This document shows positions 7,033-34,233 of a DNA stretch of 53,692 nt, one piece after another (position 1 is the first letter of the stretch; each line of letters starts with the position of its first letter). Under the pieces are notes generated by a model. That model did no database searches. It was not told the DNA's origin and worked only from the letters and a program-made list of their open reading frames with translations. The DNA lies in IMG/VR virus record IMGVR_UViG_3300050190_000114. One strand, 5' to 3'. The stretch is from a virus. The translations under genes and the position numbers were made by a program.

Positions 7033-7707
7033 ATGCGGGTTTACGAACCATCCTTCGGTGGAGTCATCAACGTTGACGCCACGCCTCTCTCTGAAGACCC
7101 CGACACCCAAGTAGCGCAAGTGATCGACATGATGGTCGATTACTCGGATGCGGATTCGTTCTCTCCCGAGATCCGCGCCGATGCGTTGCGAGGGTGTGCG
7201 TTAGGGAACGGGGATTGCATCGCCGGCAACTGGCAGGACGTGAAAAACTCGATCCGCTTTGTTCAGGACGAAGACACAGGGGAACCGTTCAGCGCCTGGC
7301 TGAAGCAAGCGCACGATGGCGACGGCGTGCCAGAGGTGCTTGTTCGTCCGGTGGACATGCGCAGAATGGCCGATCCGAAAGGGGATTGCGATTGCTTCTC
7401 GATGACGATGAGAGCTCGCTTGCTTGCTTTGGGAATTCCGGCCGGCTTCGTGACGGTAGCAGTGGATCCTGAAGACCCTGGCCGTTATTCGCATGTGTAC
7501 AACTTCGCGGATTGTTCCGGGGGTCAATGCGGGCCGAATTGGTCAGGACGTGTAGCGCTCGATACGTCGCATGGTCAGTATCCGGGATGGGAAGCTCCTA
7601 ACCCGTATGGGAAACGAGCGGAGTGGCCGCAATCGGGATGGAAAGTTCTTGGAGCTGTAGCTTTAGTAGCGGCTCTTGGGTTTGTTGCGTGGAGGGTGTG
7701 GGCATGA
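7033..7707 (+). CDS. Transglutaminase-like cysteine protease fold protein with a C-terminal TM anchor
   Basis: C-H-D pattern: GDCDCFSMTMRARLLALGIPAGFV, YSHVY, ALDTS. Hydrophobic C-terminus. Confidence 0.65.
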   Translation: MRVYEPSFGGVINVDATPLSEDPDTQVAQVIDMMVDYSDADSFSPEIRADALRGCALGNGDCIAGNWQDVKNSIRFVQDEDTGEPFSAWLKQAHDGDGVPEVLVRPVDMRRMADPKGDCDCFSMTMRARLLALGIPAGFVTVAVDPEDPGRYSHVYNFADCSGGQCGPNWSGRVALDTSHGQYPGWEAPNPYGKRAEWPQSGWKVLGAVALVAALGFVAWRVWA

Positions 7708-7907
7708 CGCATCCTTATATATTGGCCGCGTCACTGTGCCCGATCCGTGCGAACCATTGCGCGGCCGCAGAATACTCGGTCAGAATATCGAAAACAAGCG
7801 TTGCCCAACATTCTCAAGCGGCATTCTATGTTTCCGCGCTCCCGCAAGCCGGAAACCTTCCTTTGCTGGTCAACGGCGGTTTATCCACAGTCGAGGAAAA
7901 CCTGTGA
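7704..7907 (+). CDS. Bridge ORF A (sense ORF filling late cassette A)
   Basis: ATGA overlap with the upstream stop and GTGA overlap with the downstream start. L5 core at 7747-7764. L3 block at 7851-7886. Confidence 0.45.
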   Translation: MTHPYILAASLCPIRANHCAAAEYSVRISKTSVAQHSQAAFYVSALPQAGNLPLLVNGGLSTVEENL

Positions 7908-8554
7908 TACTCCCGATCACCTTAACCGGCAGGCTCGGGCTACCAGGTGGAGGTGTTCCCAACTTCGCACTCGATTCCCAAGGAAACGTAATCGGCGCCG
8001 AGTTCTGGCCTTCAGGATCAGACGCCAGTGGAGTGGATCCGGCAACCGGCGAACCGATGACCGCGGAATCCGGCAGCTCGTCACCGTTTACTAACGATGC
8101 CTCCGTGTGGACCGGAGAAACCCCAGGAGCCCCCAGCATCCTCGATATCGGCTCAAGCGTTCTCAACGTCGGATCGCGGCGCAACACCAGGGGTACGCAG
8201 TGGGACCGGATAGGATCGCAGCGAAGCGAATCGCAGTTTGATAAATGGCGAAGAGCAGGACGTCCGACCGCTTGCTCCAAAGGAATCGGCGATTACACAT
8301 TGTCGAACGGAATGCCGTGCGATCCAACCGTATACGGAGCCGTGCTGTGCCAGGACACAACGCAGCGGATTCTCAACGCGATCGCTGCAGGCGCGAGCGT
8401 AGCGGCCGGCACTCAGGTTCAGCCAGCATACGGAACGCCGGGATATGTCGGCACGCTTCCGCAAGTGGCAGTAGCAGGCTCAGCTTCACCTGGCGCATGG
8501 ATTGTTGGGATAGCAGCCGTAGCAGCAGTTATCTATCTGGTGAAGAACCGATGA
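7904..8554 (+). CDS. Late protein with a C-terminal TM anchor
   Basis: GTG start preceded by GAGGAA and the L3 block. Same frame as track ORF 7676..8554, whose N-terminal extension covers cassette A. Confidence 0.65.
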   Translation: MILPITLTGRLGLPGGGVPNFALDSQGNVIGAEFWPSGSDASGVDPATGEPMTAESGSSSPFTNDASVWTGETPGAPSILDIGSSVLNVGSRRNTRGTQWDRIGSQRSESQFDKWRRAGRPTACSKGIGDYTLSNGMPCDPTVYGAVLCQDTTQRILNAIAAGASVAAGTQVQPAYGTPGYVGTLPQVAVAGSASPGAWIVGIAAVAAVIYLVKNR

Positions 8555-9123
8555 ATCAGGTTTTGAATACAGGCGGCGCAGGCGGTCAAGGCAAACGGGA
8601 GCGCGGCGGCTGTGCTCGCACCCGGAAACAGAAGGTCACCGACCGGGCAAAGCGGTACCGGGCCAATCAACAGGCTTGCCGTCCATCCGGTTCTCGAGAA
8701 TGCGCCATCTGTGGTTCGACTCGTTTTCTAACCATCGACCACAAAGACGGTGACGAATCGAACGGCGCGAAATCTAACCTCCGCTGGCTCTGCAAATCAT
8801 GCAACACGCGGGAAGGGGCGAAGATGGCCAGAAAGGGCAAGGGCCGAAGAACGGCTCAGTACAACCCAGGCGCTCAATCGCTGGGCGAATACGTCAACGC
8901 CGTTCTGCAGCATACCCGCAAGGCGCATGACGAAGGCGGGCGCATCATCCACGAAACCCCGAAGTCTAAGCGCAGGGAATACGCTTCGGAAATCTGGAGC
9001 GCCCGTCAAGCGCGCGGCAACCCGCTGAAGAAGTGGACGCCGGCGACACTGAACGGCGCACGGGTACGGATTCGGGCGGTGGGCAAGGGGCTGCAGATTG
9101 ATCTCGGCAAGGTGGGGCGCTGA
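8551..9123 (+). CDS. HNH-motif basic protein in the structural module
   Basis: ATGA overlap. Motif CAICGS..LTIDHKDGDESNGAKSNLRWLCKSCN. The C-terminal WTPATLNGARVRIR segment is shared with the next protein. Confidence 0.6.
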   Translation: MNQVLNTGGAGGQGKRERGGCARTRKQKVTDRAKRYRANQQACRPSGSRECAICGSTRFLTIDHKDGDESNGAKSNLRWLCKSCNTREGAKMARKGKGRRTAQYNPGAQSLGEYVNAVLQHTRKAHDEGGRIIHETPKSKRREYASEIWSARQARGNPLKKWTPATLNGARVRIRAVGKGLQIDLGKVGR

Positions 9124-9536
9124 TGGCGAAGCAAACACGAGCAAGCGTCGAAGCGAAAATCCAGCGCTTGAATGATCTGATGAGCCGACGGATGCTCACA
9201 GCCAAAGAAAGACAGCGCTGGAGGCAATTAGTCGCATTGGCGGAACGATTGAAAAGGAATCCCGTGGCAACCAAGAAGAAAAAGAAGAAAGCGAAGCGCC
9301 CGGCCAAGAAGAACTGCAAGACAGCCCGGAACAAAAAACAGACGCGCGCCAAAACCAAGAAGCGCTCCACCGCGCGCAAAAAGTCTAATCCGGCGAAGAA
9401 TCTACGGGCCAAAATCTCTCAAATGAAACCCGGAAGCTGGTACCCCACTACTTTATCTGGCGCCCGTGTAAAAGTTCAAAGGAAAGGAAACAACAGTCTG
9501 CTAATCCGTCCCGCAGGTAAAAAACGCAGCCGATGA
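9123..9536 (+). CDS. Highly basic Lys/Arg-rich protein (possible DNA-condensing or internal protein)
   Basis: KKKKKKAKRPAKK tracts. C-terminal WYPTTLSGARVKVQ is paralogous to the 8551..9123 C-terminus. Confidence 0.6.
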   Translation: MAKQTRASVEAKIQRLNDLMSRRMLTAKERQRWRQLVALAERLKRNPVATKKKKKKAKRPAKKNCKTARNKKQTRAKTKKRSTARKKSNPAKNLRAKISQMKPGSWYPTTLSGARVKVQRKGNNSLLIRPAGKKRSR

Positions 9537-10252
9537 GCACAGTTCCACAATACGAATGGACCGGCTGGAGACGCACCGGCTATCAGATGCCTCACTGGGG
9601 ACTCTCCGGGAGTTCTCAGCAGGGAGACGCGAAAGCTGTAGCCGGATCATTGCAGCAGATGGCATCGGCAGCCACCAAGGCCGGCATCCCGATCGCGGGC
9701 GCAGTGTTGGAAGCGGGCGCCGCGCTGGCAAATATCGTCTCGCTGTTTGGCCCCAATCCAAACAACACCATCACAACCGAATGGGTAAACCAGATGGAAG
9801 CGGACGTAATGAAGCCGAACCTTGCAGCGTGGCAATCTCTCGCACCGGAAGAAAAGACACCCCAAGCTCAGCAGTACGCCCTGGAAGTTTTCAGCCAGGG
9901 CTGGAATCAGATCGTGCAATTATGCTCCAATCCCCAGCTCGGCTCGGCAGGATCAAACTGTCTGAAGGATCGGCAGCGTGGCGGTAAGTGGGACTGGTTT
10001 GGATACTACTACGATCCGATTGCAAACGATCCGGCAGTAGCGGCCAATGTCGCAGCGGCAAAAGTGGCGGCGCAAAGTTCCACACCGGGCGCACCTGTCA
10101 ACACTAGCACGCCGGGCTCGGCGGGCGGCAGCAACACCGCATCCGCTTCAGGCTCTACAACTGTTTCCAACTCAAGCACGAATCTCTACTTGTGGGGCGG
10201 GCTTGCTTTAATCGCTTTCGGATTGGGTTACGTCCTCACGGAGAACGACTGA
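9533..10252 (+). CDS. Late membrane protein (C-terminal TM, Ser/Thr-rich linker)
   Basis: ATGA overlap. C-terminal LWGGLALIAFGLGYVL. Confidence 0.65.
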   Translation: MSTVPQYEWTGWRRTGYQMPHWGLSGSSQQGDAKAVAGSLQQMASAATKAGIPIAGAVLEAGAALANIVSLFGPNPNNTITTEWVNQMEADVMKPNLAAWQSLAPEEKTPQAQQYALEVFSQGWNQIVQLCSNPQLGSAGSNCLKDRQRGGKWDWFGYYYDPIANDPAVAANVAAAKVAAQSSTPGAPVNTSTPGSAGGSNTASASGSTTVSNSSTNLYLWGGLALIAFGLGYVLTEND

Positions 10253-10935
10253 TGAACGTCCAACTCCGCAACGGAAACGGCTACCCCTCGCGTGGAGGCT
10301 TCCGCTACCCCGGCAGACAGAGACGATCCGGAATCGGCGCCGATCCTGGAGTGAACGTCACAACGATCTGGACACCCTCAGGCGGATGGAGCGGAAGCGG
10401 CAGCGGACCAGCGGTGTATCAAGCCCCCACACCCATAGCGCCTCCGGCTTGTAGCCAGGACACGCGACCGGGCGGCGCGGCATTCTCGTCGGCATGCATC
10501 GCGCAACTGCTAGCGACACAGCAGCAGAACATGGCGCAAGGAACCGCAGCGAACTACAACGTGGACGTACAGAACTGCTTGAATACCTTCCCGCAACCGC
10601 CAGACTGCTACTCGCGAACCTTCGGGCTCACCCTTCCAGGAACAACAGGCGGATCGACTGCCGATATTGTAAACGCAGCGGCTCTCTTGGGAGACCCAGC
10701 GGCGAAAGCGCTAGCCGCGGAAGGTGTACCGCCTACCCCTCCAGTGACAACGCCGCAGCAGACGCCGAAAGCAACACCTCCGCAGCAAGGCGGGACCACG
10801 GCAGATAGCACGAACGCCACAAGTTCATCGAGTTCAAGTTCCGGCGCAGCGCTAGTTTCGGCTCCCATCAATCCGATGCTGTATTGGATTGCGGGACTAG
10901 CAGCAGTAGCCTTGATTATTTCGGCGGTTAAATGA
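10252..10935 (+). CDS. Late membrane protein (C-terminal TM, Pro/Thr/Ser-rich linker)
   Basis: ATG 10252 overlaps the upstream stop. C-terminal YWIAGLAAVALIISAV. Confidence 0.65.
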   Translation: MNVQLRNGNGYPSRGGFRYPGRQRRSGIGADPGVNVTTIWTPSGGWSGSGSGPAVYQAPTPIAPPACSQDTRPGGAAFSSACIAQLLATQQQNMAQGTAANYNVDVQNCLNTFPQPPDCYSRTFGLTLPGTTGGSTADIVNAAALLGDPAAKALAAEGVPPTPPVTTPQQTPKATPPQQGGTTADSTNATSSSSSSSGAALVSAPINPMLYWIAGLAAVALIISAVK

Positions 10936-11459
10936 TGAGGGACTTCTCAGGCATGGGACAAGTCGGAATGGGGGATGCATCGTACGATTCCCTTGTCGCG
11001 GCCTTTGCGACTCGCGCGGTCGATCCGGCAGGCTTCGCGCGTATCCGCCCGGGCCGTCCGATTCCCAATCCTGAAACGTGCCTGAAGATCCAGTGTGGAG
11101 CGATTACGCAGGAAGAAGCCGGGATCGACCTCTTAGCCGATTGTTCGTTTGGAGGATTCGCCGGCGCGATGAGCTGCGCTTCGCCTCTCTGCGCTCCGTA
11201 TTGCGGATCAATGGCGACCGTTGCCCGAGCGTCCCAACCTTTACCCGTGGCGCCGCGTGTCGAGCAGATGTTCGTCGATGCGATTCAGAGGAACGGATGC
11301 GAGCCGGTTTATTGGGGCGCGAAGTTTGGCGGGCCGTATCCTGATTCTTCTCCGTGTGGATGTGGAGCGGGAGGGTTTATCAGGGAGCATCCGTTTGTAG
11401 CTGTAGCTCTACTTGGAGCGGCGGCTTATGGAATATACAGGTGGAGGGCCAGAAGATGA
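10932..11459 (+). CDS. Cys-rich late membrane protein (C-terminal TM)
   Basis: ATGA overlap. C-terminal FVAVALLGAAAYGIY. Confidence 0.65.
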   Translation: MMRDFSGMGQVGMGDASYDSLVAAFATRAVDPAGFARIRPGRPIPNPETCLKIQCGAITQEEAGIDLLADCSFGGFAGAMSCASPLCAPYCGSMATVARASQPLPVAPRVEQMFVDAIQRNGCEPVYWGAKFGGPYPDSSPCGCGAGGFIREHPFVAVALLGAAAYGIYRWRARR

Positions 11460-11542
11460 GGACTCGGGCTAAATTTAGTTGTTGGGCTCAACTGTTCTCA
11501 CGACTCCATGCTCGGCTTTGCGCGGCGGTGTTCTATGGATAG
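11456..11542 (+). CDS. Bridge ORF C (28 codons, L5 block only)
   Basis: ATGA overlap with the upstream stop. Its stop lies 5 nt past the downstream ATG 11535. L5 block at 11474-11526. Confidence 0.4.
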   Translation: MRTRAKFSCWAQLFSRLHARLCAAVFYG

Positions 11543-12149
11543 TCGCGTCAAATATGGTGTTCTTATCGTCGTCGGGGGAGTGGGAGTGTATCTGATCTGG
11601 AAGGGCGGATATTTGGCGCAGTGGTTCCCTAGTCTGTTTGGTCCAGGCGCTCCGCTGGCGACGGCCCCGGTTACCACTCCAACGGGAGTAACCCCGGCGC
11701 AGGTTGCGGCCATCATGGCGCAGCAGCCATCTAGCCTACCTGCCATCAGTGCGCCTACAGCTCCGGTCCCCGCACCGACGCCCACCACACCTGTCTCGGT
11801 TCCATCGACACCAGCAAGTCCCGTAAATCCCGCACCAGCGGCAACACAATTGATTTCGCAAAAGATGACAGCGCTGGCGGGAACATCTACCGGGCTTGGG
11901 ATGGATCAGTGGTGCTACTTCTATACAGCGGCCACGGGGCAGGATTGCCCCTTCGATCCGGGTTCGATCGATCCGCAGACCTACCAGGACGCCGGCATAC
12001 TCGCAGCCGATGGCTCAGCGGGAGACAGAAGCACCCCGACCGACATTGGAACATGGCTGGCAATGGCGCAACTTCAGGCTCCCCAGCTCGGCTTGACCGG
12101 CATCGAAGGACTGGCAGCGTTACACGTTGCGAATGCGTGGCTGGTATGA
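11535..12149 (+). CDS. Late membrane protein (N-terminal TM, Pro/Ala/Thr-rich)
   Basis: Hydrophobic YGVLIVVGGVGVYLIW. An alternative ATG exists at 11508. Confidence 0.6.
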   Translation: MDSRVKYGVLIVVGGVGVYLIWKGGYLAQWFPSLFGPGAPLATAPVTTPTGVTPAQVAAIMAQQPSSLPAISAPTAPVPAPTPTTPVSVPSTPASPVNPAPAATQLISQKMTALAGTSTGLGMDQWCYFYTAATGQDCPFDPGSIDPQTYQDAGILAADGSAGDRSTPTDIGTWLAMAQLQAPQLGLTGIEGLAALHVANAWLV

Positions 12150-12313
12150 GAAAAGGCTTTCTGTATCGCACGATGATGGCGGCATTCCGGTTCCGACGTT
12201 GGACTCCGCTCGTTAAATTCGGCTTGTTCACATTGCTAGTCGTTTTCGCGCTCGTTTTCGCGCTGGAGACTTTGGGACTCTCAATCTTCTGGTTGAATGG
12301 AGGCGGGTTTTGA
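12146..12313 (+). CDS. Small TM protein (55 aa)
   Basis: ATGA overlap. Hydrophobic FGLFTLLVVFALVFAL. The 3' end contains a degenerate reverse R1-like GGTTGAATGGAGG. Confidence 0.5.
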   Translation: MRKGFLYRTMMAAFRFRRWTPLVKFGLFTLLVVFALVFALETLGLSIFWLNGGGF

Positions 12314-12531
12314 GCGCCATCATCAGTTTATCGAGTGGTCACGCGAAGGCGGATCTTATCTTGCAATTCGGAGTGGGTACCGAGAATCCAAGCGTGATGA
12401 TTATCAACCACGTGGGCGAAGAGACCATCGAATTCGGCGACATTCAGCGGTTTTCCGATGAAGAGTTGGAAGTAAAAGCCACCGCGCTTGGACCCAAAAC
12501 GAAGGGCAAGACTGCAAAGGCCAAATCATGA
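12310..12531 (+). CDS. Hypothetical small late protein
   Basis: The TTG start overlaps the upstream stop. Confidence 0.5.
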   Translation: MSAIISLSSGHAKADLILQFGVGTENPSVMIINHVGEETIEFGDIQRFSDEELEVKATALGPKTKGKTAKAKS

Positions 12532-28413: not shown

Positions 28414-28985
28414 TCGAATCCTGCCTCTCCCTCCAAAACCGAATCTGGGAACAACCCAACGCCTTCAACCACTGCTTAAACCAGGAATGCCAACTCTGGG
28501 AACAAATCATCCTCCGCGGTGGACTCGAAATGGTCTGCCAGACCATGCGTAAAAAGCGCTACCTGAAAGCACCTTGGGTTGAAATGCCACCGGAGGGAGA
28601 GAGGCTGCAGAAAGTCGGATCGATCCCACTTCCGGCCGCGGAGCTCGTCGATACGCAAATTCTCGATTTCACCATGCCCATCGGATGGGATGGAGTCGGA
28701 ACCAATGTCATGATGACGGTCGCGGGTTCCGGTTTCGTCGAGGGCTCGGGCGACGTCATCTGGCGAATGCAGGTGGGTCAGCGCTGGATACCGGATTTCT
28801 CAAACGTGATCTTTTCACTTAACGATCTGCGAAACCCGCATGCGCTTGTAGGCGGGTACATCCGTTTGCTTTCCTTGCAACGGGTCCAAATCTTCGCAAG
28901 TTTGGGCGCCGGGGCGCTCGGGAGACTGGATCCTGCAGACCGGCTGAATGCGGCTGTAGTGGGATGGCAGTATCCAAAGAGGTAA
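28404..28985 (+). CDS. Beta-rich capsid-associated protein (193 aa)
   Basis: ATG follows the L3 block and AAGAGG. Motifs GDVIWRMQVG and AAVVGWQYPKR. The track ORF 28185 is an N-terminal over-extension. Confidence 0.6.
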   Translation: MPLVESCLSLQNRIWEQPNAFNHCLNQECQLWEQIILRGGLEMVCQTMRKKRYLKAPWVEMPPEGERLQKVGSIPLPAAELVDTQILDFTMPIGWDGVGTNVMMTVAGSGFVEGSGDVIWRMQVGQRWIPDFSNVIFSLNDLRNPHALVGGYIRLLSLQRVQIFASLGAGALGRLDPADRLNAAVVGWQYPKR

Positions 28986-28986
28986 A

Positions 28987-30033
28987 ATGCCGACGATTAG
29001 AGCCCCTAGGACGAATCGCAGGAGCCTCTGCCATGGTTTACTATGGCTAAAACAGGGTTCCAGTCGTTGGGCCGTGCTCTTGTGCGCCCTTCTTGCGGGT
29101 GGGAGCGCGGGGGCTTTTCTTTTCGATCCGTGCTGGAGGCTGGACAGGTGGGGCGGGAATGTCGAAGGTCATCAGGCGATGCTCTCGGATCAATCCGGCG
29201 ACCAGATCTCCACTGAAGTCGAACAGCAGATTATTTTTCTCTTCGCTGGCTTCGAACCGTTGGCCGCCCTTTTCGATTACGCCCCTCTTCAGCCGAACGC
29301 AAATGACTGGCATATCTGCCGTGCAAGCGCTCAACTCAGGGCAAACGACGGCCAGAGTCGCGCCCTTGTATTCGAACAGGTCTCCGATTCCGACCTCGAC
29401 CTCTCCGTACTGATCGCGCAGCGTCATGCTAGTCACGGCCTCGATTCCATTTGGCCCGTCGCAGATCATGCTTCCAGCCGTTTCAGAATCGCTTTTGTCA
29501 TCCGCCGATTGTACAATTTCCAGAACCAGTTTAACAGCATCGTTTTATTCTCCTGCCTTAGAGACGTGCGAAATGGTACCAGCGTGTCCGATTTTGGTTC
29601 TATTTCTTGCCCTAGGCCGTTGGTTCTACGTACCTACGGGATGAGGACCTTAGTTTGGGCTCGACATTCGACGCAGGCTCAGGATCGGCATTGCGCGGGG
29701 GCGGTCAATGCCTGGCAACCTCTAGCCGAGTTATCCGCTCACCCTGGCTGGCTAACCGCTGTTCGATGCGATCAAGAATCCCTTCGATGCGATCCAGACG
29801 GCGCGCGAAGTCATCCAGCCGCTTATTATTCGCCCACGTGCCAAAAAGAACGGCGATCACTATCGGCAGCGCGGTCGAAAGAGCGATCACTATCGGCAGC
29901 GCGGTCGAAAGAAAGGATTGCAGCATCGGATTGTTCACCCGTCAAGTATGCGCCGAATCAGCAGCGGGCGCAATACGCCACAGCGCACTTCAGTACTGAA
30001 ACCCTCGACCGACTGTCGAGCCCAACAACATGA
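28987..30033 (+). CDS. Bridge ORF I (349 codons, sense ORF spanning a 1-kb double cassette)
   Basis: ATG 1 nt after the upstream stop. ATGA overlap with the downstream start. Internal L5 block at 29649-29698, where an internal Met (29641) restarts the family N-terminus. Confidence 0.35.
   Translation: MPTIRAPRTNRRSLCHGLLWLKQGSSRWAVLLCALLAGGSAGAFLFDPCWRLDRWGGNVEGHQAMLSDQSGDQISTEVEQQIIFLFAGFEPLAALFDYAPLQPNANDWHICRASAQLRANDGQSRALVFEQVSDSDLDLSVLIAQRHASHGLDSIWPVADHASSRFRIAFVIRRLYNFQNQFNSIVLFSCLRDVRNGTSVSDFGSISCPRPLVLRTYGMRTLVWARHSTQAQDRHCAGAVNAWQPLAELSAHPGWLTAVRCDQESLRCDPDGARSHPAAYYSPTCQKERRSLSAARSKERSLSAARSKERIAASDCSPVKYAPNQQRAQYATAHFSTETLDRLSSPTT
29047..29469 (-). CDS. Antisense accessory protein (140 aa) in cassette I
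   Basis: Balanced protein-like composition. Codon-aligned antisense to the bridge ORF. Confidence 0.45.
   Translation of the reverse strand: MICDGPNGIEAVTSMTLRDQYGEVEVGIGDLFEYKGATLAVVCPELSACTADMPVICVRLKRGVIEKGGQRFEASEEKNNLLFDFSGDLVAGLIREHRLMTFDIPAPPVQPPARIEKKSPRAPTRKKGAQEHGPTTGTLF
29705..29938 (-). CDS. Antisense TM plus coiled-coil protein (77 aa) in cassette I
   Basis: Duplicated TM segment STALPIVIA x2, then the heptad-like LDDFARRLDRIEGILDRIEQRL. Confidence 0.45.
   Translation of the reverse strand: MNNPMLQSFLSTALPIVIALSTALPIVIAVLFGTWANNKRLDDFARRLDRIEGILDRIEQRLASQGERITRLEVARH
29853..29912. repeat. Perfect 30-bp tandem duplication (2 copies)
   Basis: GCGATCACTATCGGCAGCGCGGTCGAAAGA occurs twice back to back. 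This is 10 codons, so it is in frame on both strands. Confidence 0.95.
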
Positions 30034-31076
30034 AAACTCTCTTACTCGCACTCCTCATCATCCCCTTAGCCTACGCTCAGCAACTCCAGCCCGTCTCTAG
30101 CGTTCAAGCGGACTGCGGCAAATTCCTGCAACCGGCGATCACCACGGCGGGAACCTTCAACAGCGCGACGGTCGACAATCGATTCGCAGCGTGCGACGGC
30201 TGGGTAGTCACCTACTCTTCATTTGGCTTCGCTACGGTCTCCGTATTGCTTCAGAGCGCTCCTTTGACAACGGCAGGAGCGGCAGGAACCTTCGTATCGT
30301 TCGCCGGCACGATCGTAACCGGCTCAGTGAATCCCACCACGGCAACCAACCAGGGCGAGATTCGAGCTACCGGGTACTTTCCTTACGTGCGGGTTCAGAT
30401 CACCACCACGGGAGCCGGGTACTTGACGGCGGAATTCCACGGCTTCAAAACGAATCCAAATTCGGGAAGCGGAGCGCCGGCCGGAACAGGCTGCCCTAAT
30501 CCCTGCCCGGTAATCGGTCCCACTGCCTCAGGAAGCCCGCCTACGACTCCTCCAGTGCTGGTAGCAGGGCTCGATACGAATGCAGGTAATATCGAGCCAC
30601 TCCTGGTCGATTTCTTCGGGGGGCTGATACTAGGGGCACGAACTACCCAGCCACCCGATTTAGGAACCACAACCAGCATGCCATTCTTGCAATCGAGCAA
30701 CATGCTAGGGGGGATGGGTATTTACAGTTTGCCGATTATCACTACTGCGGATGGAAATCATTTTTCGCAAGCGCCAGGCGATGAAACACATGGACCTTTG
30801 GTACAACTCTCAGGCAATAGCGCGGTACGCTCCGCTCAGCAGGCAGTGACGAATGCGGCTGTGGCTCTGACTTCAGGAGCAGCGAAGAATATCTGCGTTA
30901 AAGGGCTTTCGACCAACACCGCATCGGTCTACATCGGTCCAACGGGAATTACGACGTCTACAGGAATGGAACTAGCGCCGGGAGACGCTTATTGTGGGCC
31001 AGTTTCGAACACCAATCTCATTTTCGTCATCGCGACAGCGGGAGGTCAGAGCATCTCATGGATCGCCACAAATTAA
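30030..31076 (+). CDS. Late protein with a Sec-type signal peptide (348 aa)
   Basis: N-terminus MKTLLLALLIIPLAYAQQ. Pro/Thr linker. C-terminal beta domain. Confidence 0.65.
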   Translation: MKTLLLALLIIPLAYAQQLQPVSSVQADCGKFLQPAITTAGTFNSATVDNRFAACDGWVVTYSSFGFATVSVLLQSAPLTTAGAAGTFVSFAGTIVTGSVNPTTATNQGEIRATGYFPYVRVQITTTGAGYLTAEFHGFKTNPNSGSGAPAGTGCPNPCPVIGPTASGSPPTTPPVLVAGLDTNAGNIEPLLVDFFGGLILGARTTQPPDLGTTTSMPFLQSSNMLGGMGIYSLPIITTADGNHFSQAPGDETHGPLVQLSGNSAVRSAQQAVTNAAVALTSGAAKNICVKGLSTNTASVYIGPTGITTSTGMELAPGDAYCGPVSNTNLIFVIATAGGQSISWIATN

Positions 31077-31594
31077 TCTGGCTGTTTCTTTGCTTCTTTG
31101 CTCTGACCGGCCAGGCGCAAGGGCCATCATTCGTCTCGCGTGGCAGGATAACGGGAGCGTTTACAATTGGAAATTGCGTGAAAGTCGGTGCCGCTGGAAG
31201 CCTCATCGACAACGGCACCACCTGTGCGGGAGCAGGAAGTTCTCAACTCCACTCCATAAGCTTCGTAATCGACGGCGGCGGCTCGGTCATCGTCCTTGGG
31301 GATGCGAAGGTCTACCCGACAGCGGATTTCACTTGTACCATAAACCGCTGGGATATCTCGGCTGATCAATCCGGTTCGATTACCGTGGATGTTTGGAAAG
31401 CGGCCGGGGCGATTCCGACTTCAGGCAACAAGATTTCCGCGTCGGCTCCGCTAACTCTCTCCACGGCGCAACTGGCGCAAAATGGTTCTAGATCAGGATG
31501 GACGGCGGCGGTTTCGACTGGGGATGTGTTTGGATTTTCGGTCGCAACGGCTACAACGGTAACACGGGTAACCGGGCAGATTTGGTGTCAGTGA
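31058..31594 (+). CDS. Late protein with a Sec-type signal peptide (178 aa)
   Basis: N-terminus MDRHKLIWLFLCFFALTGQAQG. Overlaps the upstream gene by 19 nt. Confidence 0.6.
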   Translation: MDRHKLIWLFLCFFALTGQAQGPSFVSRGRITGAFTIGNCVKVGAAGSLIDNGTTCAGAGSSQLHSISFVIDGGGSVIVLGDAKVYPTADFTCTINRWDISADQSGSITVDVWKAAGAIPTSGNKISASAPLTLSTAQLAQNGSRSGWTAAVSTGDVFGFSVATATTVTRVTGQIWCQ

Positions 31595-33102
31595 TGAAGG
31601 GATTGTTTCTTATTCTAATCTCTGCGCCGTGCTTTGCTGCCATATCGAGCAACACTGCCTGGGAAGTCCGCACGGTTTCGAGCGACACCAACGGCGGCGG
31701 CTTCGTGCAAGGCGCGACCGGGACGGACATGTCCCAGTTCAACAACAAGAACGCTGCGGCCTGCTCCTCTTGCCAATCCGCCACGGTCAACATTTCCACC
31801 ACTGACGCGGTAGCGATCGGAACAACCACCATCACCAGCATTACGGGGAATTTTTCAGCGGCCATCGTTGGAAACATCGTGGAGTTTTCCGGGGGGACGG
31901 GTAGCATTACAGCGGTTTGGAAGCAAGTGACCGCTTTCACGAACGCGACCACCATCACCATCGACTCCTCCATCGCCGCTTCCACCGGCATGACGATGAA
32001 CATCGGCGGCGCGCTGGCCACGATCGGCAAGGCCCTTGCGGTCATGACCGCGCAGAATATCATCTTCGTGAAGGCCACGGCTACCTATTCCATCACGGCG
32101 AATCTCACGCTCGCCAATCAGTTCACGCCAACCAATGCCGCACCGCCCAACCAACTCATCGGCTATACGACCAGCCGCACCGACACGGGCCGCGCGACGA
32201 TCCAACTCACAACCAACTCCAATCTCACGGCCCTCGACGGAACCAACGGGCAAGGATGGTGGATCAGTAATTTCGTGATCGACTGCAATAGCTTGACCGG
32301 ATCGCTCGGCGCGCGCATCAATTCGCATTCGGTGCTACGAAACCTGCTGGTGAAGAACTGCCTGGCTATCGGCGTCAATCTGGCCAACGGCACGTCCAGG
32401 CTGATGGACTCGGAAATCACCGCCAATACCGCAAGCGCCGGCAATGGCGCCGTGAATAGCGGAGGAGCTCAAAATTCCATCGAGCGCAACTACATCCACG
32501 ACAATACCGGATCGGGAATCGTGCTGGCGGGAGGCGGATCGATGGCCAGCTTCAACGTGATTGCGAACAATTCCGGCGCGTCGAGTCAGGGCATTTTGGT
32601 GAACAATTCAGGCATAAACGTCATTTTTAACAACACTATCTACAATAATGGTCAGGATGGAATCCAGTTCACTAATAACGCTTCGCTCGGGTCCGATTCA
32701 ACGGCGCGCAACAATCTGCTGATCTCCAACGCCCGCTATGGACTGAACGGCTACAACGTCAATCCAGGCTGGGGAAAGTTCCCGCAGTGGGACGGTAACG
32801 CTTATTTCGGGAACACGACAGCCGCAAGGAACAACGCCGACGATACAGGAACAACGAATCCGATCAACGCAGCTAACCCCTACACGAACACATTGGACGT
32901 GACCCTGACAGCGAGTCCGTTCACCAACGCCGGAACGCACGATTTCACTCTGAATTCCACGGCGGGCGGCGGGGCGGCGGCGAAAGGAACGGCTACACCT
33001 GGAGCGCTTCCGGGGCTTTCGCAGTCGGGCGCTCTGAGTTTCGGAGCGTTGCAGCAAGCAAGTTCCACCAGTACGGGATCGAATTCCGCTTTTGCGCAGT
33101 GA
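31594..33102 (+). CDS. Right-handed beta-helix (pectate-lyase-like) protein with a signal peptide, depolymerase or spike candidate
   Basis: N-terminus MKGLFLILISAPCFA. PbH1-like repeats (NYIHDNTGSGIVL, VIANNSGASSQGILV, NNTIYNNGQDGIQF, NNLLISNARYGL). Confidence 0.65.
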   Translation: MKGLFLILISAPCFAAISSNTAWEVRTVSSDTNGGGFVQGATGTDMSQFNNKNAAACSSCQSATVNISTTDAVAIGTTTITSITGNFSAAIVGNIVEFSGGTGSITAVWKQVTAFTNATTITIDSSIAASTGMTMNIGGALATIGKALAVMTAQNIIFVKATATYSITANLTLANQFTPTNAAPPNQLIGYTTSRTDTGRATIQLTTNSNLTALDGTNGQGWWISNFVIDCNSLTGSLGARINSHSVLRNLLVKNCLAIGVNLANGTSRLMDSEITANTASAGNGAVNSGGAQNSIERNYIHDNTGSGIVLAGGGSMASFNVIANNSGASSQGILVNNSGINVIFNNTIYNNGQDGIQFTNNASLGSDSTARNNLLISNARYGLNGYNVNPGWGKFPQWDGNAYFGNTTAARNNADDTGTTNPINAANPYTNTLDVTLTASPFTNAGTHDFTLNSTAGGGAAAKGTATPGALPGLSQSGALSFGALQQASSTSTGSNSAFAQ

Positions 33103-33107
33103 GTAAA

Positions 33108-33227
33108 ATGAGGGTTTGGGTTCAACGCGGATTTACGGGCCGTACTCGGCATTACGCGGCGACTATCTCCGCGCTCCCAGAGCTGGAAACCTTGGCATAC
33201 TGGTGGACGGCGGTTTACCACTTATGA
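33108..33227 (+). CDS. Bridge ORF J (39 aa), second minimal complete cassette
   Basis: Starts 5 nt after the upstream stop. ATGA overlap with the next start. L5 block at 33112-33159. L3 block at 33185-33219. Alignable end to end with cassette G. Confidence 0.4.
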   Translation: MRVWVQRGFTGRTRHYAATISALPELETLAYWWTAVYHL

Positions 33228-33709
33228 TGCTCATCACCTTCGAAGACATGCCCCAACCATCTCAGCAGAACCCACCCTCCAATTGGCCTTATGCCCTCAC
33301 CGGCGTACTCATGGCATGCCTGGGAGTGATCGCCATCCTCGTGTTGACCTCGCTGCGCCCGACTCAGGACAATAGCGTTCTCATCGCGACCGTGATCGGC
33401 TTTCTGAGCACGACGACCGGCGTCATTATGACCTTCATGAAGGCGCAGGAAACGCACCTGGCGGTGAATTCGCGACTGGATGCTTTCATGGCAAGCGCTC
33501 GCAAAGTCGGACATCTGGAAGGGGAAGTATCGGGCCGAATGGCGGGAATCGCCGAAGGGGAGCTCCGGCGCCCTCTCGCTGCTCCCGCTGTTCCAACTAC
33601 CCTGGAAGTGGATACCAACCTCACGGCGCATAAGATCGACAACGATGCCACCGCGCGCCAAGCGCCCAAACCGTCACCCACTAACGCGGCCAAAAACAAG
33701 GATTTATGA
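33224..33709 (+). CDS. Two-TM membrane protein, holin candidate
   Basis: Two hydrophobic helices followed by a charged tail. Lies immediately upstream of the muramidase-like gene. Confidence 0.45.
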   Translation: MMLITFEDMPQPSQQNPPSNWPYALTGVLMACLGVIAILVLTSLRPTQDNSVLIATVIGFLSTTTGVIMTFMKAQETHLAVNSRLDAFMASARKVGHLEGEVSGRMAGIAEGELRRPLAAPAVPTTLEVDTNLTAHKIDNDATARQAPKPSPTNAAKNKDL

Positions 33710-34233
33710 GCTTAACCGATTCCATAGCCCAATCCATCGCCAGTGTCGAATCAGGCGGAAACCCCAACGCCTTGTCGTACCGAAATAACAATCCGGGAAA
33801 CTTGCGCTCCTGGGGATCGAATCCGATCGTAAACGGCTATGCCCAGTTTCCAACCCTGCAAGCAGGCTGGGACGCCCTATACTCGCAGATCAATCTGAAC
33901 ATCAGCCGCGGCCTCACGCTGGTGGAATTCTTCGCCGGTAAACCAGGAGTGTACGCGGGATTCGCGCCAGGCGGATCAGGTGGAAACGATCCGCAGAGTT
34001 ACGCTGCCTTCGTGGCTGGACAAGTCGGCATCGACCCGAATACCCCCTTAAACGCGCTCGGATCGACGGCCGCGCCCAGCATCGATCCGACAACGGGACT
34101 ACCCGCCATCGATCCAACGACCGGGCTCCCGCCCGATACTTCTCCAGCAGGATCGATAGATTGGGCTACGATTGGGCTTGTGGGATTGGGAGCTTTAGTA
34201 CTTTTCTATATATTTAATTCGTTAAGTGATTGA
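33706..34233 (+). CDS. Peptidoglycan hydrolase-like protein with a C-terminal TM anchor (endolysin candidate)
   Basis: Motifs VESGGNPNA and NNPGNLR..GY..F. Repeated DPTTGLP. C-terminal TM. Confidence 0.45.
   Translation: MSLTDSIAQSIASVESGGNPNALSYRNNNPGNLRSWGSNPIVNGYAQFPTLQAGWDALYSQINLNISRGLTLVEFFAGKPGVYAGFAPGGSGGNDPQSYAAFVAGQVGIDPNTPLNALGSTAAPSIDPTTGLPAIDPTTGLPPDTSPAGSIDWATIGLVGLGALVLFYIFNSLSD

What the first reader, a model, noticed from the sequence alone, without database searches (positions are those of the whole stretch)
7033..34233. Virion module looks tail-less and membrane-containing: many anchored small proteins, capsid-like beta paralogs, and no recognisable terminase, portal or tail
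Membrane proteins: the 27-kb late operon encodes at least 15 proteins with a single C- or N-terminal hydrophobic anchor. Their starts are 7033, 7904, 9533, 10252, 10932, 11535, 12146, 12528, 13006, 13689, 14215, 14972, 15353, 33224 and 33706. There is also a lipoprotein (15523).

Other components: two very basic DNA-binding-like proteins (8551, 9123); a basic-plus-hydrophobic protein (21120); and five beta-rich proteins with similar strand patterns and ADFxWR / VIWR-type motifs (21981, 23405, 24531, 27426, 28404). Their terminal strands (..ILFLGVKRYKL, ..LTFHGVRRR, ..VVGWQYPKR) suggest jelly-roll-like capsid or penton proteins.

Absences: I see no Walker-A protein other than DnaB and the SNF2-like helicase. 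I also see no tape-measure-sized gene, portal-like gene or integrase.

Interpretation: if correct, this is an internal-membrane (PRD1-, PM2- or sphaerolipovirus-like) or enveloped virus. Its genome would be several-fold larger than the classical members, and its packaging ATPase would be unrecognisable.
Basis: inference. Interest (0 to 1): 0.7.

Follow-up and report, generated by a model that had tools for sequence, protein, structure and literature searches.

The report
Tailless jelly-roll phage lacking packaging ATPase
This is the complete 53.6-kb genome of an uncultivated bacterial virus whose particle genes look like those of tail-less, jelly-roll-capsid (PRD1-type) viruses rather than tailed phages, yet it is several times larger than such bacterial viruses and has no recognisable DNA-packaging motor.

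Summary
The observation mostly holds. The window is a complete, circularly assembled 53.6-kb virus genome (127-bp terminal overlap). Its 27-kb late region carries about 16 small proteins with a hydrophobic anchor, a lipoprotein, very basic proteins and a conserved block of beta-sandwich proteins.

- **Absences:** Pfam, PHROGs and NCBIfam find no HK97 capsid, portal, terminase, tail or integrase. The only P-loop proteins are DnaB and an SNF2-methylase fusion.
- **Folds:** In the AlphaFold models the 243-aa protein is a jelly-roll-like sandwich. The 294-aa protein is two tandem jelly rolls. Its best Foldseek matches are PRD1/PR772 P3 and PBCV-1 capsid chains (E about 5e-5, but TM only about 0.25).
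- **Paralogy:** The 144-aa protein and both halves of the 294-aa protein are paralogs by profile comparison.
- **Relatives:** The module is syntenic in about 40 metagenomic loci (contigs 40-63 kb; 376 protein clusters). None is named, and none is in GenBank phages.

A tail-less jelly-roll-capsid virus is the best reading. An internal membrane is plausible but untested. The FtsK/HerA packaging ATPase is genuinely absent.

Corrections: the region is not one uninterrupted operon, 8551 is an HNH nuclease, and only three of the five beta-proteins are demonstrably related.

The parts
1..127 (.). Terminal direct repeat (identical to 53566-53692). It marks a circularly assembled, complete genome of 53,565 bp.
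   Evidence: Exact 127-bp match of the two ends. A 945-aa SNF2-methylase ORF runs across the junction. An independent 54,234-bp assembly of a close relative exists.
5234..6865 (-). 543-aa conserved protein of unknown function, transcribed divergently from the late region. It is the largest unassigned protein outside the late genes.
   Evidence: 12 homologs at 46-100% identity. No hit in Pfam, PHROGs, NCBIfam or PDB sequences. No P-loop.
7033..16032 (+). Block of about 19 small proteins, 15-16 with a single hydrophobic anchor. Most are C-terminal anchors followed by a basic tail, with no signal peptide and Cys-rich N-domains. The block also holds the HNH nuclease (8551-9123), a 35% K+R protein (9123-9536) and a lipoprotein (15523-16032).
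   Evidence: Hydropathy scan. Pfam HNH. Most members are conserved at 30-60% identity in L003/L004. A comparable TM-rich block lies upstream of the capsid block in all 27 relatives tested.
14972..15346 (+). 124-aa C-terminally anchored protein with two copies of the peptide (R)DFVxxNFPEP[HY]NPI[YW].
   Evidence: The motif is found in this protein and in 21120-21908. It is conserved in L003, L004, L010 and L011.
17014..18396 (+). 460-aa protein. The N-half is basic with repeated [KR]xNP. The C-terminal ~200 aa is a core domain of the lineage (FHG...GGDQ...YxHxxGEE...GGxYxV...GIxN).
   Evidence: The C-domain is found in 30 of 34 distant loci. No library or PDB match. Not modelled.
19298..21034 (+). 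Three paralogous copies of a ~110-aa beta-rich domain (19298-19693, 19706-20038, and the C-terminus of 20051-21034). The last is fused to an Ice-binding-like beta-solenoid, making it a candidate fibre or spike with a capsid-anchoring domain.
   Evidence: Pfam PF11999, 4e-62. All three copies hit the same single gene in L003/L004/L005.
21120..21908 (+). 262-aa core protein. It has a basic N-part with [KR]xNP repeats, a central hydrophobic stretch and a C-terminal DFVxxNFPEPHNPIY peptide. It is a candidate DNA-membrane-shell linker.
   Evidence: Composition. Conserved directly upstream of the 243-aa gene in relatives. Motif.
21981..22712 (+). 243-aa single beta-sandwich (jelly-roll-like) protein. 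It is among the most conserved core proteins and is a candidate shell protein.
   Evidence: 48 homologs. AF2 pLDDT 74.5 with eight strands. Foldseek gives only weak jelly-roll hits: the best in PDB is SPV1 capsid VP4 (E 0.09, prob 0.85), which recurs in BFVD at rank 21, E 0.097. 0.49 bits/residue across distant loci.
23405..23839 (+). 144-aa single jelly-roll protein, a paralog of each half of the 294-aa protein. It is the most conserved core protein and a candidate penton or second shell protein.
   Evidence: hhalign to the N-domain prob 99.1% (E 5e-19) and to the C-domain 98.2%. 0.58 bits/residue.
24531..25415 (+). 294-aa protein made of two tandem jelly-roll domains (about 26-147 and 157-293), each ending F[QH]GVRR. 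It has a double-jelly-roll-type fold.
   Evidence: AF2 pLDDT 84, pTM 0.82. Foldseek hits: PBCV-1 capsid 5e-5, PR772/PRD1 P3 6e-5 to 5e-4, SGIV, STIV A223 and PHM, all with TM about 0.25. The two halves are related at prob 97.8%. 376 clusters in 1.84 billion representatives.
27426..28985 (+). Two further conserved beta-rich core proteins: 27426-27989 (187 aa) and 28404-28985 (193 aa).
   Evidence: Syntenic in 27 and 24 of 34 distant loci. 187 vs 144 is borderline by hhalign (31%, 5e-4). Not modelled.
26030..27283 (+). 417-aa accessory protein inserted in the capsid block. It is not part of the conserved core.
   Evidence: Absent at this position in L001, L003 and L004. Only weak partial hits elsewhere.
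22875..29938 (-). Minus-strand accessory ORFs lying between the capsid genes: 22875-23288 (Tat-like signal), 23911-24108, 24110-24298, 25550-25972, 28125-28376, 29047-29469 and 29705-29938. Three are confirmed as genes by conservation; the other four are plausible from sequence only.
   Evidence: Translations. For 24110, 28125 and 29047, minus-strand ORFs are much better conserved than the overlapping open + ORFs (84 vs 42%, 59 vs 41%, 60 vs 46%). One homolog sits at another intergenic site in L010. The other four have no hit in the loci. The inserts are absent in L001/L003/L004.
30030..33102 (+). Three consecutive proteins with N-terminal Sec-type signal peptides: 30030-31076 (348 aa, N-domain conserved in the lineage), 31058-31594 (178 aa) and 31594-33102 (502 aa, right-handed beta-helix). 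They are candidate spike, fibre or depolymerase proteins.
   Evidence: Pfam Beta_helix, 3e-12. Signal peptides. N-domain conservation.
33224..34233 (+). Lysis cassette at the end of the late region: a two-TM holin-like protein (33224-33709) and a lysozyme-like protein with a C-terminal anchor (33706-34233). A strong terminator hairpin follows at 34264-34289.
   Evidence: phrog_873 endolysin domain, 1e-9. TM scan. Terminator.
7873..33219 (+). Repeated upstream element ending ACGGCGGTTYAYC, 4-25 nt before the starts of 7904, 13006, 21120, 23405, 24531, 26030, 27426, 28404 and 33224. There are also three minus-strand copies: 4462-4474 lies before the minus-strand start at 4458, and 36823-36835 and 39778-39790 have no assigned gene. 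It is a candidate late promoter or operator.
   Evidence: 12 copies against 0.37 expected. Extended ~55-nt similarity. Conserved before the same genes in L011/L012.

Best explanation
The window is the whole genome of a member of a large, so far unnamed lineage of bacterial viruses. It has an ordinary phage-type replication and nucleotide-metabolism arm: DnaB, HNH nucleases, DUF3310, DUF5131, a dNMP phosphatase and an SNF2-methylase.

Its particle is not of the tailed (HK97/portal/terminase) kind. It is most likely a tail-less icosahedral shell built from jelly-roll proteins. The candidates are the conserved, syntenic 243-aa and 144-aa single jelly rolls, the 294-aa tandem (double) jelly roll, and the 187- and 193-aa beta proteins.

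The block of about 16 small anchored proteins that always precedes these genes most likely supplies a protein-rich lipid layer under the shell, as in PRD1, PM2 or SPV1. The beta-solenoid and beta-helix proteins serve as vertex fibres or spikes. The last two genes lyse the cell.

No P-loop packaging enzyme exists in the complete genome. The 54-kb DNA is therefore probably condensed by the abundant basic proteins (9123, 21120, the N-half of 17014) and enclosed during assembly, rather than pumped into a preformed shell. The late HNH nuclease is a candidate for cutting replicated DNA to unit length. A shared peptide (DFVxxNFPEPxNPIY), present on both a membrane-anchored protein and the basic core protein, may dock both to the same shell component.

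Shown: genome completeness, the absences, the jelly-roll folds, the paralogy, the synteny and the enrichment of anchors. Inferred: icosahedral shell, membrane, role assignments, packaging mode and docking peptide.
For: **Genome and absences**
- Complete genome: 127-bp terminal overlap, with a gene spanning it.
- No tailed-phage hallmark in Pfam, PHROGs or NCBIfam for any protein of 130 aa or more.
- No tblastn match to 50,697 GenBank phages.
- The only P-loops are DnaB and SNF2.
- Among 40 related loci (656 kb around the module), only one has a P-loop ATPase nearby.

**Folds and paralogy**
- The 294-aa model (pLDDT 84) has two beta-sandwich domains. Its top hits are PBCV-1, PR772/PRD1 P3 and SGIV capsid proteins, STIV A223 and PHM, at E 5e-5 to 1e-3 and prob up to 0.99.
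- PHM is a recognised cellular double-jelly-roll fold (PMC8812541).
- 144 aa ~ N-half ~ C-half of the 294-aa protein at hhalign prob 98-99%.
- The 243-aa model is an eight-stranded sandwich. SPV1 capsid VP4 is the best PDB hit and recurs in the BFVD list, though not significantly.

**Lineage-wide conservation**
- The six-gene core is syntenic in 24-33 of 34 distant loci.
- The TM-rich block is conserved upstream in all 27 relatives tested.
- Anchors occur in 15-16 of 19 proteins here against 3 of 41 elsewhere in the genome.
- The docking-type peptide is shared by 14972 and 21120 and is conserved.

**Precedent:** FLiP, SPV1 and the Odin group are jelly-roll viruses without a packaging ATPase (PMC8812541, PMC5894146).
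Against: - TM-scores to real DJR capsid proteins are only 0.22-0.29 with rmsd about 18 A, so the inter-domain geometry of a capsomer is not demonstrated.
- The double-jelly-roll protein is the least conserved core protein (0.25 bits/residue). It is duplicated in L013, and its long variants carry FG-GAP propellers. That pattern suits a vertex or receptor-binding protein better than a major capsid protein.
- The 243-aa fold hits are not significant (E at least 0.01).
- Known ATPase-less jelly-roll viruses have genomes of 7-20 kb. Enclosing 54 kb without a motor has no precedent.
- Three late proteins, one of them a core protein, carry Sec signal peptides. This is unexpected for a particle assembled in the cytoplasm.
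- There is no direct evidence of lipid.
Confidence: 0.55

Rival explanations
1. The shell is a jelly-roll capsid, but there is no internal membrane. The anchored small proteins act in the host envelope instead (assembly site, DNA delivery or egress, superinfection exclusion, lysis control) and are not virion lipid-layer components.
For: - Nothing in the sequence shows lipid.
- The anchored proteins have no signal peptide, yet their N-domains are Cys-rich with mostly even Cys counts, so their topology is unclear.
- Their sequences diverge fast: only 4-5 of 34 distant loci keep detectable homologs of 10932 or 14972.
Against: - A TM-rich block always sits directly upstream of the capsid block, on the same strand, in all 27 relatives tested.
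- One anchored protein shares a conserved peptide with the basic core protein.
- The core protein 21120 has its own hydrophobic stretch.
- The cultured prokaryotic dsDNA jelly-roll viruses I know of (PRD1, PM2, Bam35, STIV, SH1, P23-77, SPV1) all contain a membrane. This is established knowledge, not tested here.
Confidence: 0.15
2. The particle is of another, possibly new, architecture: an enveloped or pleomorphic virion that buds through the cytoplasmic membrane. The anchored proteins form the envelope or matrix, signal-peptide proteins lie on the outside, and the beta-sandwich proteins act as nucleocapsid or spike parts rather than as an icosahedral shell.
For: - Conserved Sec signal peptides on late proteins, including the core 30030 family.
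- No packaging ATPase.
- Abundant basic DNA-condensing proteins.
- Many membrane proteins.
Against: - The top fold matches are icosahedral capsid proteins.
- The pairing of a single jelly-roll paralog with a tandem jelly-roll protein is the classical penton/hexon pattern.
- A holin-endolysin cassette ends the late region. This fits lytic release of particles assembled in the cytoplasm, although it does not exclude budding into the periplasm.
Confidence: 0.12
3. It is a very divergent tailed phage (Caudoviricetes) whose capsid, portal, terminase and tail genes escape all profile libraries. The beta-sandwich proteins would be baseplate, fibre or decoration proteins.
For: - The replication arm is phage-like.
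- Beta-helix and beta-solenoid proteins are common tail-fibre parts.
- Weak fold hits include baseplate and fibre chains.
- Five proteins remain unmodelled.
Against: - A terminase needs a P-loop, and none exists in the complete genome.
- No gene is of tape-measure size. The conserved core has no protein large enough for a portal, except the lineage-restricted 543-aa protein and the 460-aa protein, of which only the last ~200 aa are conserved.
- Three libraries give zero structural hits.
Confidence: 0.08
4. It is not a virus. It would be a plasmid-like mobile element whose anchored and beta-sandwich proteins are cell-surface or adhesion proteins.
For: - Double jelly rolls also occur in cellular carbohydrate-binding enzymes (PMC8812541).
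- Some variants carry FG-GAP domains.
- Relatives are binned in MAGs, one of them on a 358-kb Bryobacteraceae contig.
Against: - There are no partition, conjugation or T4SS ATPase genes.
- A lysis cassette is present, and a holin in L003.
- DUF3310, DUF5131 and dNMP phosphatase phage families are present.
- 27 relatives are IMG/VR viral contigs with a narrow size range of 40-63 kb.
- The MAG taxa are scattered over five phyla, as expected for mis-binned virus contigs.
Confidence: 0.05

Closest known systems
Bamfordvirae of prokaryotes (Tectiviridae PRD1/PR772, Corticoviridae PM2, Turriviridae STIV): double-jelly-roll capsid, single-jelly-roll penton, internal membrane
   Same: - A protein of two tandem jelly rolls whose best structural matches are PRD1/PR772 P3 and PBCV-1/SGIV capsid proteins.
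- An adjacent single-jelly-roll protein.
- Many small membrane proteins in the same transcription direction.
- Fibre- or spike-like proteins and a lysis cassette.
   Different: - No FtsK/HerA packaging ATPase.
- The genome is 53.6 kb against 7-18 kb (PMC5894146).
- The two jelly rolls and the single-jelly-roll protein are still recognisably similar in sequence, unlike classical DJR proteins (PMC8812541).
- TM-score is only about 0.25.
- The DJR-type protein is the least conserved core gene.
Portogloboviridae (Sulfolobus polyhedral virus 1)
   Same: - A single-jelly-roll shell protein. SPV1 VP4 is the top, though non-significant, PDB match of the 243-aa model and recurs in the BFVD list.
- No packaging ATPase (PMC8812541).
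- DNA condensed by basic proteins inside a lipid layer. This is my knowledge of SPV1, not tested here.
   Different: - The host signals are bacterial (DnaB, Sec and Tat signals, lipobox, Shine-Dalgarno sites), whereas SPV1 infects archaea.
- The genome is about 2.5 times larger.
- A tandem jelly-roll protein is also present.
- The fold match is not significant (E 0.09).
Helvetiavirae (Sphaerolipoviridae, Simuloviridae, Matshushitaviridae such as P23-77): two single-jelly-roll capsid proteins encoded side by side
   Same: Two adjacent, highly conserved single beta-sandwich proteins of about 240 and 144 aa precede the other structural genes. Membrane proteins lie nearby.
   Different: - No ATPase.
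- 243 and 144 aa are not detectably related to each other.
- No helvetiavirus capsid protein appeared among the top 50 fold matches.
- The genome is three times larger.
Odin-group/skuldvirus and FLiP-group DJR viruses that lack a packaging ATPase
   Same: A jelly-roll capsid module without any P-loop packaging enzyme, with co-assembly around the genome proposed as the mechanism (PMC5894146, PMC8812541).
   Different: - Those genomes are 7-17 kb and, for FLiP, ssDNA. Here there are 53.6 kb of dsDNA with a full replication arm.
- No sequence relation was detected.

Membership tests
Caudoviricetes (tailed phages) | HK97-fold major capsid protein | tested here: not met
   No Pfam, PHROGs or NCBIfam capsid family hit on any protein. 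The two modelled core proteins are all-beta sandwiches. The remaining core proteins were not modelled.
Caudoviricetes (tailed phages) | Large terminase (P-loop ATPase plus nuclease) and portal | tested here: not met
   The only P-loops in the complete genome are DnaB and SNF2. No terminase or portal profile hit.
Caudoviricetes (tailed phages) | Tail tube, tape measure and baseplate genes | tested here: not met
   The largest late gene is 534 aa, a beta-helix. There are no tail families in PHROGs apart from a lysozyme-domain match for 33706.
Bamfordvirae (PRD1/PM2/STIV-type DJR viruses) | Major capsid protein with a vertical double jelly roll forming pseudo-hexameric trimers | tested here: inconclusive
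   The 294-aa model has two jelly-roll domains. Foldseek E is 5e-5 to 5e-4 and prob 0.94-0.99 to PRD1/PR772 P3 and PBCV-1, but TM is 0.22-0.29. The oligomer was not modelled, and the protein's role as major capsid protein is doubtful.
Bamfordvirae (PRD1/PM2/STIV-type DJR viruses) | Single-jelly-roll penton protein | tested here: inconclusive
   A 144-aa single-domain paralog of the DJR halves exists next to it. Pentamer formation and vertex location cannot be tested here.
Bamfordvirae (PRD1/PM2/STIV-type DJR viruses) | FtsK/HerA-superfamily genome-packaging ATPase | tested here: not met
   Absent from the complete genome and from 39 of 40 related loci. The single DUF87 ATPase, in L013, has no homolog here.
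Bamfordvirae (PRD1/PM2/STIV-type DJR viruses) | Internal lipid membrane with virus-encoded membrane proteins | not testable with these tools
   Anchored proteins are strongly enriched and conserved in position. Lipid itself needs purified particles.
Helvetiavirae (sphaerolipovirus-type) | Two single-jelly-roll major capsid proteins plus an FtsK/HerA ATPase | tested here: not met
   Two adjacent single-sandwich proteins exist (243 and 144 aa), but there is no ATPase and no fold match to helvetiavirus capsid proteins in the top 50.
Portogloboviridae (SPV1-type) | Single-jelly-roll shell protein, membrane-wrapped nucleoprotein core, no ATPase, archaeal host | tested here: inconclusive
   SPV1 VP4 is the best PDB hit of the 243-aa model, but only at E 0.09 and prob 0.85. 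The lack of an ATPase is met. Basic proteins are present. The host signals are bacterial.

The most novel reading that the evidence does not exclude
This genome represents a family-or-higher-rank, still undescribed lineage of bacterial dsDNA viruses. It comprises hundreds of 50%-identity clusters with genomes of 40-63 kb, and it builds a membrane-containing jelly-roll capsid and encloses about 54 kb of DNA with no packaging motor at all, through condensation by basic core proteins. Its double jelly-roll protein arose by a separate duplication of the virus's own single jelly-roll protein, recent enough or constrained enough to leave a sequence trace. That would be a living example of the single-to-double jelly-roll transition that is debated for the origin of Bamfordvirae.
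Probability: 0.3. Interest if true: 0.9.

Novelty: new variant of a known kind. Interest (0 to 1): 0.78.

Why it matters
- **Size and gene content.** Tail-less jelly-roll viruses of bacteria are thought to be small (7-18 kb). They are defined by a double-jelly-roll capsid protein partnered with an FtsK/HerA packaging ATPase. A widespread lineage (376 clusters of one protein, dozens of 40-63-kb contigs) that keeps the jelly-roll module, has a tailed-phage-sized genome with a full replication arm and lacks any packaging motor would widen that picture.
- **Packaging.** It raises a concrete mechanistic question: how is 54 kb of dsDNA enclosed without ATP-driven packaging?
- **Capsid evolution.** The single jelly-roll protein and both halves of the tandem protein are still alignable. 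The lineage therefore offers a tractable case for the disputed origin of double jelly-roll capsid proteins: duplication within viruses versus capture of a cellular protein (PMC8812541).
- **Virus detection.** These genomes carry no hallmark gene that standard virus classifiers use for structural modules. They are a useful test case for structure-based virus discovery.

Tried and rejected
1. **Stop-codon reassignment or read-through** as the cause of the 400-1050-nt stretches between capsid genes, each of which has a + strand ORF open from stop to stop. Rejected. All three stop codons occur in the other frames and the + ORFs have odd composition and low codon scores. Where relatives share the stretch, the minus-strand ORFs are much better conserved.
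2. **Introns or structured RNAs** in those stretches. Rfam finds nothing at gathering thresholds and there are no tRNAs.
3. **Close DNA or protein relatives in public collections.** megablast and tblastn against GenBank phages and PLSDB plasmids found none.
4. **Single-protein scans of IMG/VR** with the 417- and 460-aa proteins found none. A scan with the alignment of the 243-aa family then found 27.
5. **Sequence searches of the PDB** with the 460- and 543-aa proteins and with profiles of the 243-, 294- and 543-aa families gave nothing below E = 0.5.
6. **A hidden packaging ATPase.** Relaxed Walker-A scans gave only chance matches. The DUF87 ATPase of relative L013 has no homolog in the window.
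7. **Sequence relation of the 243- and 193-aa proteins** to the 144/294 family. None was found by hhalign.
8. **Sigma-70 promoter and terminator scans** of 21-34.5 kb were not above shuffled expectation, apart from the terminator after the last late gene.
9. **Literature.** Full-text searches found no paper describing this lineage. The library is incomplete, so this is not proof of absence.

Full report
**What the window is.** The two ends of the window are an exact 127-bp direct repeat. A 945-aa ORF encoding an SNF2-related domain fused to an N6/N4 DNA methylase runs across that junction. The window is therefore a circularly assembled, complete genome of 53,565 bp. A close relative was assembled independently as a 54,234-bp contig. 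GC content is about 56% and there are no tRNAs. Completeness matters here, because no missing gene can be blamed on truncation.

**Check of the observation.**
- A hydropathy scan finds a hydrophobic anchor in 13 of the 15 named proteins at a strict threshold. The other two have visibly hydrophobic C-terminal segments.
- In 7033-16032, 15-16 of 19 proteins are anchored. Among the 41 early and replication proteins the count is 3, one of them a false positive within DnaB.
- 15523 has a signal peptide ending in a lipobox-like LSVGC.
- The basic proteins are real. 8551-9123 is additionally an HNH endonuclease (PF01844, 7e-6; PHROGs).
- Walker-A scans of all six frames of the circularised genome find only DnaB and the SNF2-like protein.
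- Pfam, PHROGs and NCBIfam scans of essentially every protein of 130 aa or more return no capsid, portal, terminase, tail, tape-measure or integrase family.
- The replication arm gives ordinary phage hits: DnaB, HNH, DUF3310, DUF5131, dNMP phosphatase phrog_318 and a papain-like peptidase. The libraries therefore do work on this genome.
- In the late region the only hits are an Ice-binding-like beta-solenoid (20051-21034, 4e-62), a right-handed beta-helix (31498-33102, 3e-12) and a lysozyme-type domain (33706-34233).

**The conserved core.** The 243-aa protein has 48 homologs and the 294-aa protein 26. All are unnamed and come from metagenomes.
- I fetched neighbourhoods of relatives at 97%, 83%, 72-75% and about 35-40% identity, plus five MAG contigs and 27 IMG/VR contigs of 40-63 kb.
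- They show one syntenic cassette: the C-terminal ~200 aa of the 460-aa protein, a ~110-aa domain protein, the basic 262-aa protein, then the 243-, 144-, 294-, 187- and 193-aa proteins. The N-domain of the 30030 protein and the lysozyme-like protein follow further on.
- In 34 distant loci the six main members are found in 24-33 loci.
- An exhaustive profile search with the 294-aa family finds 376 clusters (at 50% identity) at E up to 1e-3 and 316 at up to 1e-10. All inspected clusters are 'hypothetical'.
- There is no tblastn match in 50,697 GenBank phage records or in PLSDB.

**Folds.** Only two structure jobs were allowed.
- *243-aa protein.* The model (pLDDT 74.5) is an eight-stranded beta-sandwich. 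Foldseek gives only non-significant jelly-roll matches. The best in PDB is the SPV1 capsid protein (E 0.09, prob 0.85), and it recurs in the viral library. Other matches are C1q/TNF-type domains, the FLiP penton and small-virus coat proteins.
- *294-aa protein.* The model (pLDDT 84, pTM 0.82) has two beta-sandwich domains. It has 24 PDB matches with E up to 1e-3. These are led by PBCV-1 capsid chains, PR772 and PRD1 P3 and the SGIV capsid protein, followed by the STIV turret protein A223 and peptidylglycine hydroxylating monooxygenase.
- PMC8812541 lists PHM as one of the few cellular double-jelly-roll folds. The hit list is thus coherent: it points to the double-jelly-roll fold class.
- The caveat is that TM-scores are only 0.22-0.29 and rmsd is about 18 A. 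The mutual orientation of the two domains, which is what makes a pseudo-hexameric capsomer, is not shown.

**Paralogy.** Profile-profile comparison of families built from the relatives gives these results:

| Comparison | hhalign prob | E-value |
|---|---|---|
| 144-aa protein vs N-half of 294 | 99.1% | 5e-19 |
| 144-aa protein vs C-half of 294 | 98.2% | 3e-14 |
| N-half vs C-half of 294 | 97.8% | 9e-13 |
| 187-aa protein vs 144-aa protein | 31% | 5e-4 |

The 243- and 193-aa proteins show no relation to the others. That the two halves of a tandem jelly-roll protein and a neighbouring single jelly-roll protein are still alignable is unusual. PMC8812541 states that classical DJR capsid proteins have no detectable similarity even among themselves.

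**Which protein forms the shell is open.**
- The 144-, 193- and 243-aa proteins are the best conserved (0.58, 0.51 and 0.49 bits per residue). The tandem jelly-roll protein is the least conserved (0.25).
- The tandem protein is duplicated in L013.
- Its 600-750-aa variants carry FG-GAP beta-propeller repeats. These features are more typical of a vertex or receptor-binding protein, such as the STIV A223-type turret, than of a major capsid protein.
- A shell made of the 243- and/or 144-aa proteins (SPV1- or sphaerolipovirus-like) is as likely as a PRD1-like one made of the 294-aa protein.

**Membrane.** Lipid cannot be shown from sequence.
- In all 27 relatives with enough upstream sequence, the 10 kb before the 243-aa gene encode 3-11 small proteins with predicted membrane segments, including 1-6 with a single C-terminal anchor.
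- The anchored 14972 protein (two copies) and the basic core protein 21120 (one copy) share the peptide (R)DFVxxNFPEP[HY]NPI[YW], which is conserved in four relatives. I read it as a docking peptide that ties a membrane protein and a DNA-binding protein to the same partner. This is inference.
- 21120 also has a hydrophobic middle part.
- All cultured prokaryotic dsDNA jelly-roll viruses known to me contain a membrane (established knowledge). An internal membrane is therefore the most economical reading, at roughly even odds.

**Packaging.** No P-loop packaging ATPase exists in the complete genome.
- In 656 kb of sequence around the core module of 40 relatives, only one locus (L013) has a real P-loop protein. 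It is a 375-aa DUF87/HerA-type ATPase on the opposite strand, beside a resolvase, and has no homolog in the window or the other loci.
- Precedents for ATPase-less jelly-roll viruses exist: FLiP, SPV1 and the Odin group. For these, co-assembly around the genome has been proposed (PMC5894146, PMC8812541). All of them are 7-20 kb.
- Four late proteins here are very basic and carry repeated [KR]xNP motifs (10 copies against about 1 expected). A late HNH nuclease is also present.
- I propose condensation by these proteins and enclosure during assembly, with the HNH enzyme resolving replicated DNA. This is inferred, not shown.

**Features that do not fit neatly.**
- The core 30030 family keeps a classical Sec signal peptide in distant relatives. 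The two following proteins, including the beta-helix protein, also start with signal peptides.
- The anchored proteins lack signal peptides, yet their N-domains are Cys-rich with mostly even Cys counts and their membrane segment is followed by a basic tail.
- These points keep alive an alternative in which assembly involves the cytoplasmic membrane or periplasm, giving an enveloped or budding particle.

**Structure of the late region.** It is not a single uninterrupted operon.
- A ~55-nt element ending ACGGCGGTTYAYC occurs 12 times (0.37 expected). Nine copies lie 4-25 nt upstream of late-gene starts. It is kept before the same genes in the 97% relatives.
- Between the capsid genes lie stretches of 400-1050 nt that are absent in L001, L003 and L004.
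- Each stretch holds a + strand ORF open from stop to stop. These ORFs have aberrant composition and weak codon scores.
- The minus strand of the same stretches encodes plausible proteins. Where relatives share them, these are far better conserved than the overlapping + ORFs: 84 vs 42%, 59 vs 41% and 60 vs 46% identity.
- The homolog of 29047-29469(-) lies at a different intergenic site in L010. The gaps are therefore hot-spots for small, strand-inverted accessory cassettes.
- A strong hairpin terminator at 34264-34289 closes the late region.

**Comparison and verdict.** The genome works most like the tail-less, membrane-containing jelly-roll viruses (PRD1, PM2, STIV or SPV1 types). It cannot be filed in any of these families. 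The ATPase hallmark is tested and not met, the genome is three to seven times larger, the DJR geometry is unverified, and there is no sequence relation. It is not a tailed phage by any test available.

I found no paper describing the lineage, though the searchable library is incomplete. I rate it a new variant of a known kind. There is a substantial chance (about 0.3) that it is a new high-rank lineage with motor-less packaging and an independent single-to-double jelly-roll duplication.

Noticed in passing
window 1-127 and 53566-53692; ORF 51078 -> 53565 -> 350: An exact 127-bp terminal overlap, typical of a circular assembly, shows the genome is complete. A 945-aa fusion of an SNF2-related helicase domain and an N6/N4 DNA methylase spans the junction.
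   Followed up: yes
window 7873, 12969, 21092, 23368, 24502, 25992, 27401, 28378, 33207 (+); 4474, 36835, 39790 (-): A repeated ~55-nt element ending ACGGCGGTTYAYC occurs 12 times (0.37 expected). Ten copies, nine on the + strand and one on the - strand, lie 3-25 nt upstream of a start codon. It is conserved before the same genes in L011/L012. It is a candidate late promoter or operator, and some targets would have almost no leader.
   Followed up: partly
window 22713-23404, 23840-24530, 25416-26029, 27990-28403, 28986-30029: The stretches between capsid genes are insertion hot-spots absent from more distant relatives. They carry minus-strand accessory ORFs, among them one with a Tat-like signal (22875-23288) and a TM plus coiled-coil protein (29705-29938). 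The overlapping + strand ORFs, although open from stop to stop, are probably not genes. One cassette sits at a different intergenic site in L010.
   Followed up: yes
window 15026-15130 (in 14972-15346) and 21795-21840 (in 21120-21908); L003, L004, L010, L011: The short peptide (R)DFVxxNFPEP[HY]NPI[YW] is shared by a membrane-anchored protein (two copies) and the basic core protein (one copy), and is conserved in relatives. It may be a common docking motif.
   Followed up: partly
late proteins 10932, 13006, 14215, 14972, 21981, 26030, 30030: The tripeptide GMG occurs 9 times in late proteins and 0 times in early proteins (1.6 expected). Seven occurrences fall within the first 72 residues. This could be a processing or targeting signal. 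The genome also encodes a papain-like peptidase (39023-39769) and a weak transglutaminase-core match (7033-7707).
   Followed up: partly
window 8551-9536, 17014-18396, 21120-21908: The four basic proteins carry 10 copies of a [KRSG]NP motif preceded by basic residues (about 1 expected). 8551 and 9123 also share a C-terminal segment, W(T/Y)PxTLxGARV (blastp 4e-4).
   Followed up: partly
window 30030-31076, 31058-31594, 31594-33102; L001, L003, L004, L008, L011: Three consecutive late proteins begin with Sec-type signal peptides. The signal peptide of the 30030 family is conserved in distant relatives. This is odd for components of a particle assembled in the cytoplasm.
   Followed up: partly
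window 19298-19693, 19706-20038, 20723-21034: The window has three paralogous copies of a ~110-aa beta-rich domain, where relatives have one. One copy is fused behind an Ice-binding-like (PF11999) beta-solenoid.
   Followed up: partly
L013 14897-16024 (-), 17472-18122 (-): One distant relative carries a 375-aa DUF87/HerA-FtsK-type ATPase next to a serine resolvase, 3 kb from its two double-jelly-roll genes. No homolog was found in the window or in the other loci then held (L001-L012). A Walker-A scan of all 40 loci found no comparable protein.
   Followed up: partly
P0145, P0177, P0192, P0214, P0218 (relatives of 24531-25415): Long (600-750 aa) variants of the tandem jelly-roll protein contain FG-GAP beta-propeller repeats inserted between or beside the two jelly-roll domains.
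   Followed up: partly
L008 (JAXLQN010000013.1, 358,486 bp, Bryobacteraceae MAG): A relative of the capsid module lies within the first 22 kb of a 358-kb contig of an Acidobacteriota MAG. This may be an integrated copy and a host hint. The other MAG assignments are scattered (Methylophilaceae, Lysinibacter, Saccharibacteria, Desulfatibacillum), as expected from mis-binning.
   Followed up: no
window 34264-34289: A strong 11-bp GC-rich hairpin with flanking T/A runs lies 30 nt after the last late gene. It is a likely bidirectional terminator marking the end of late transcription.
   Followed up: no
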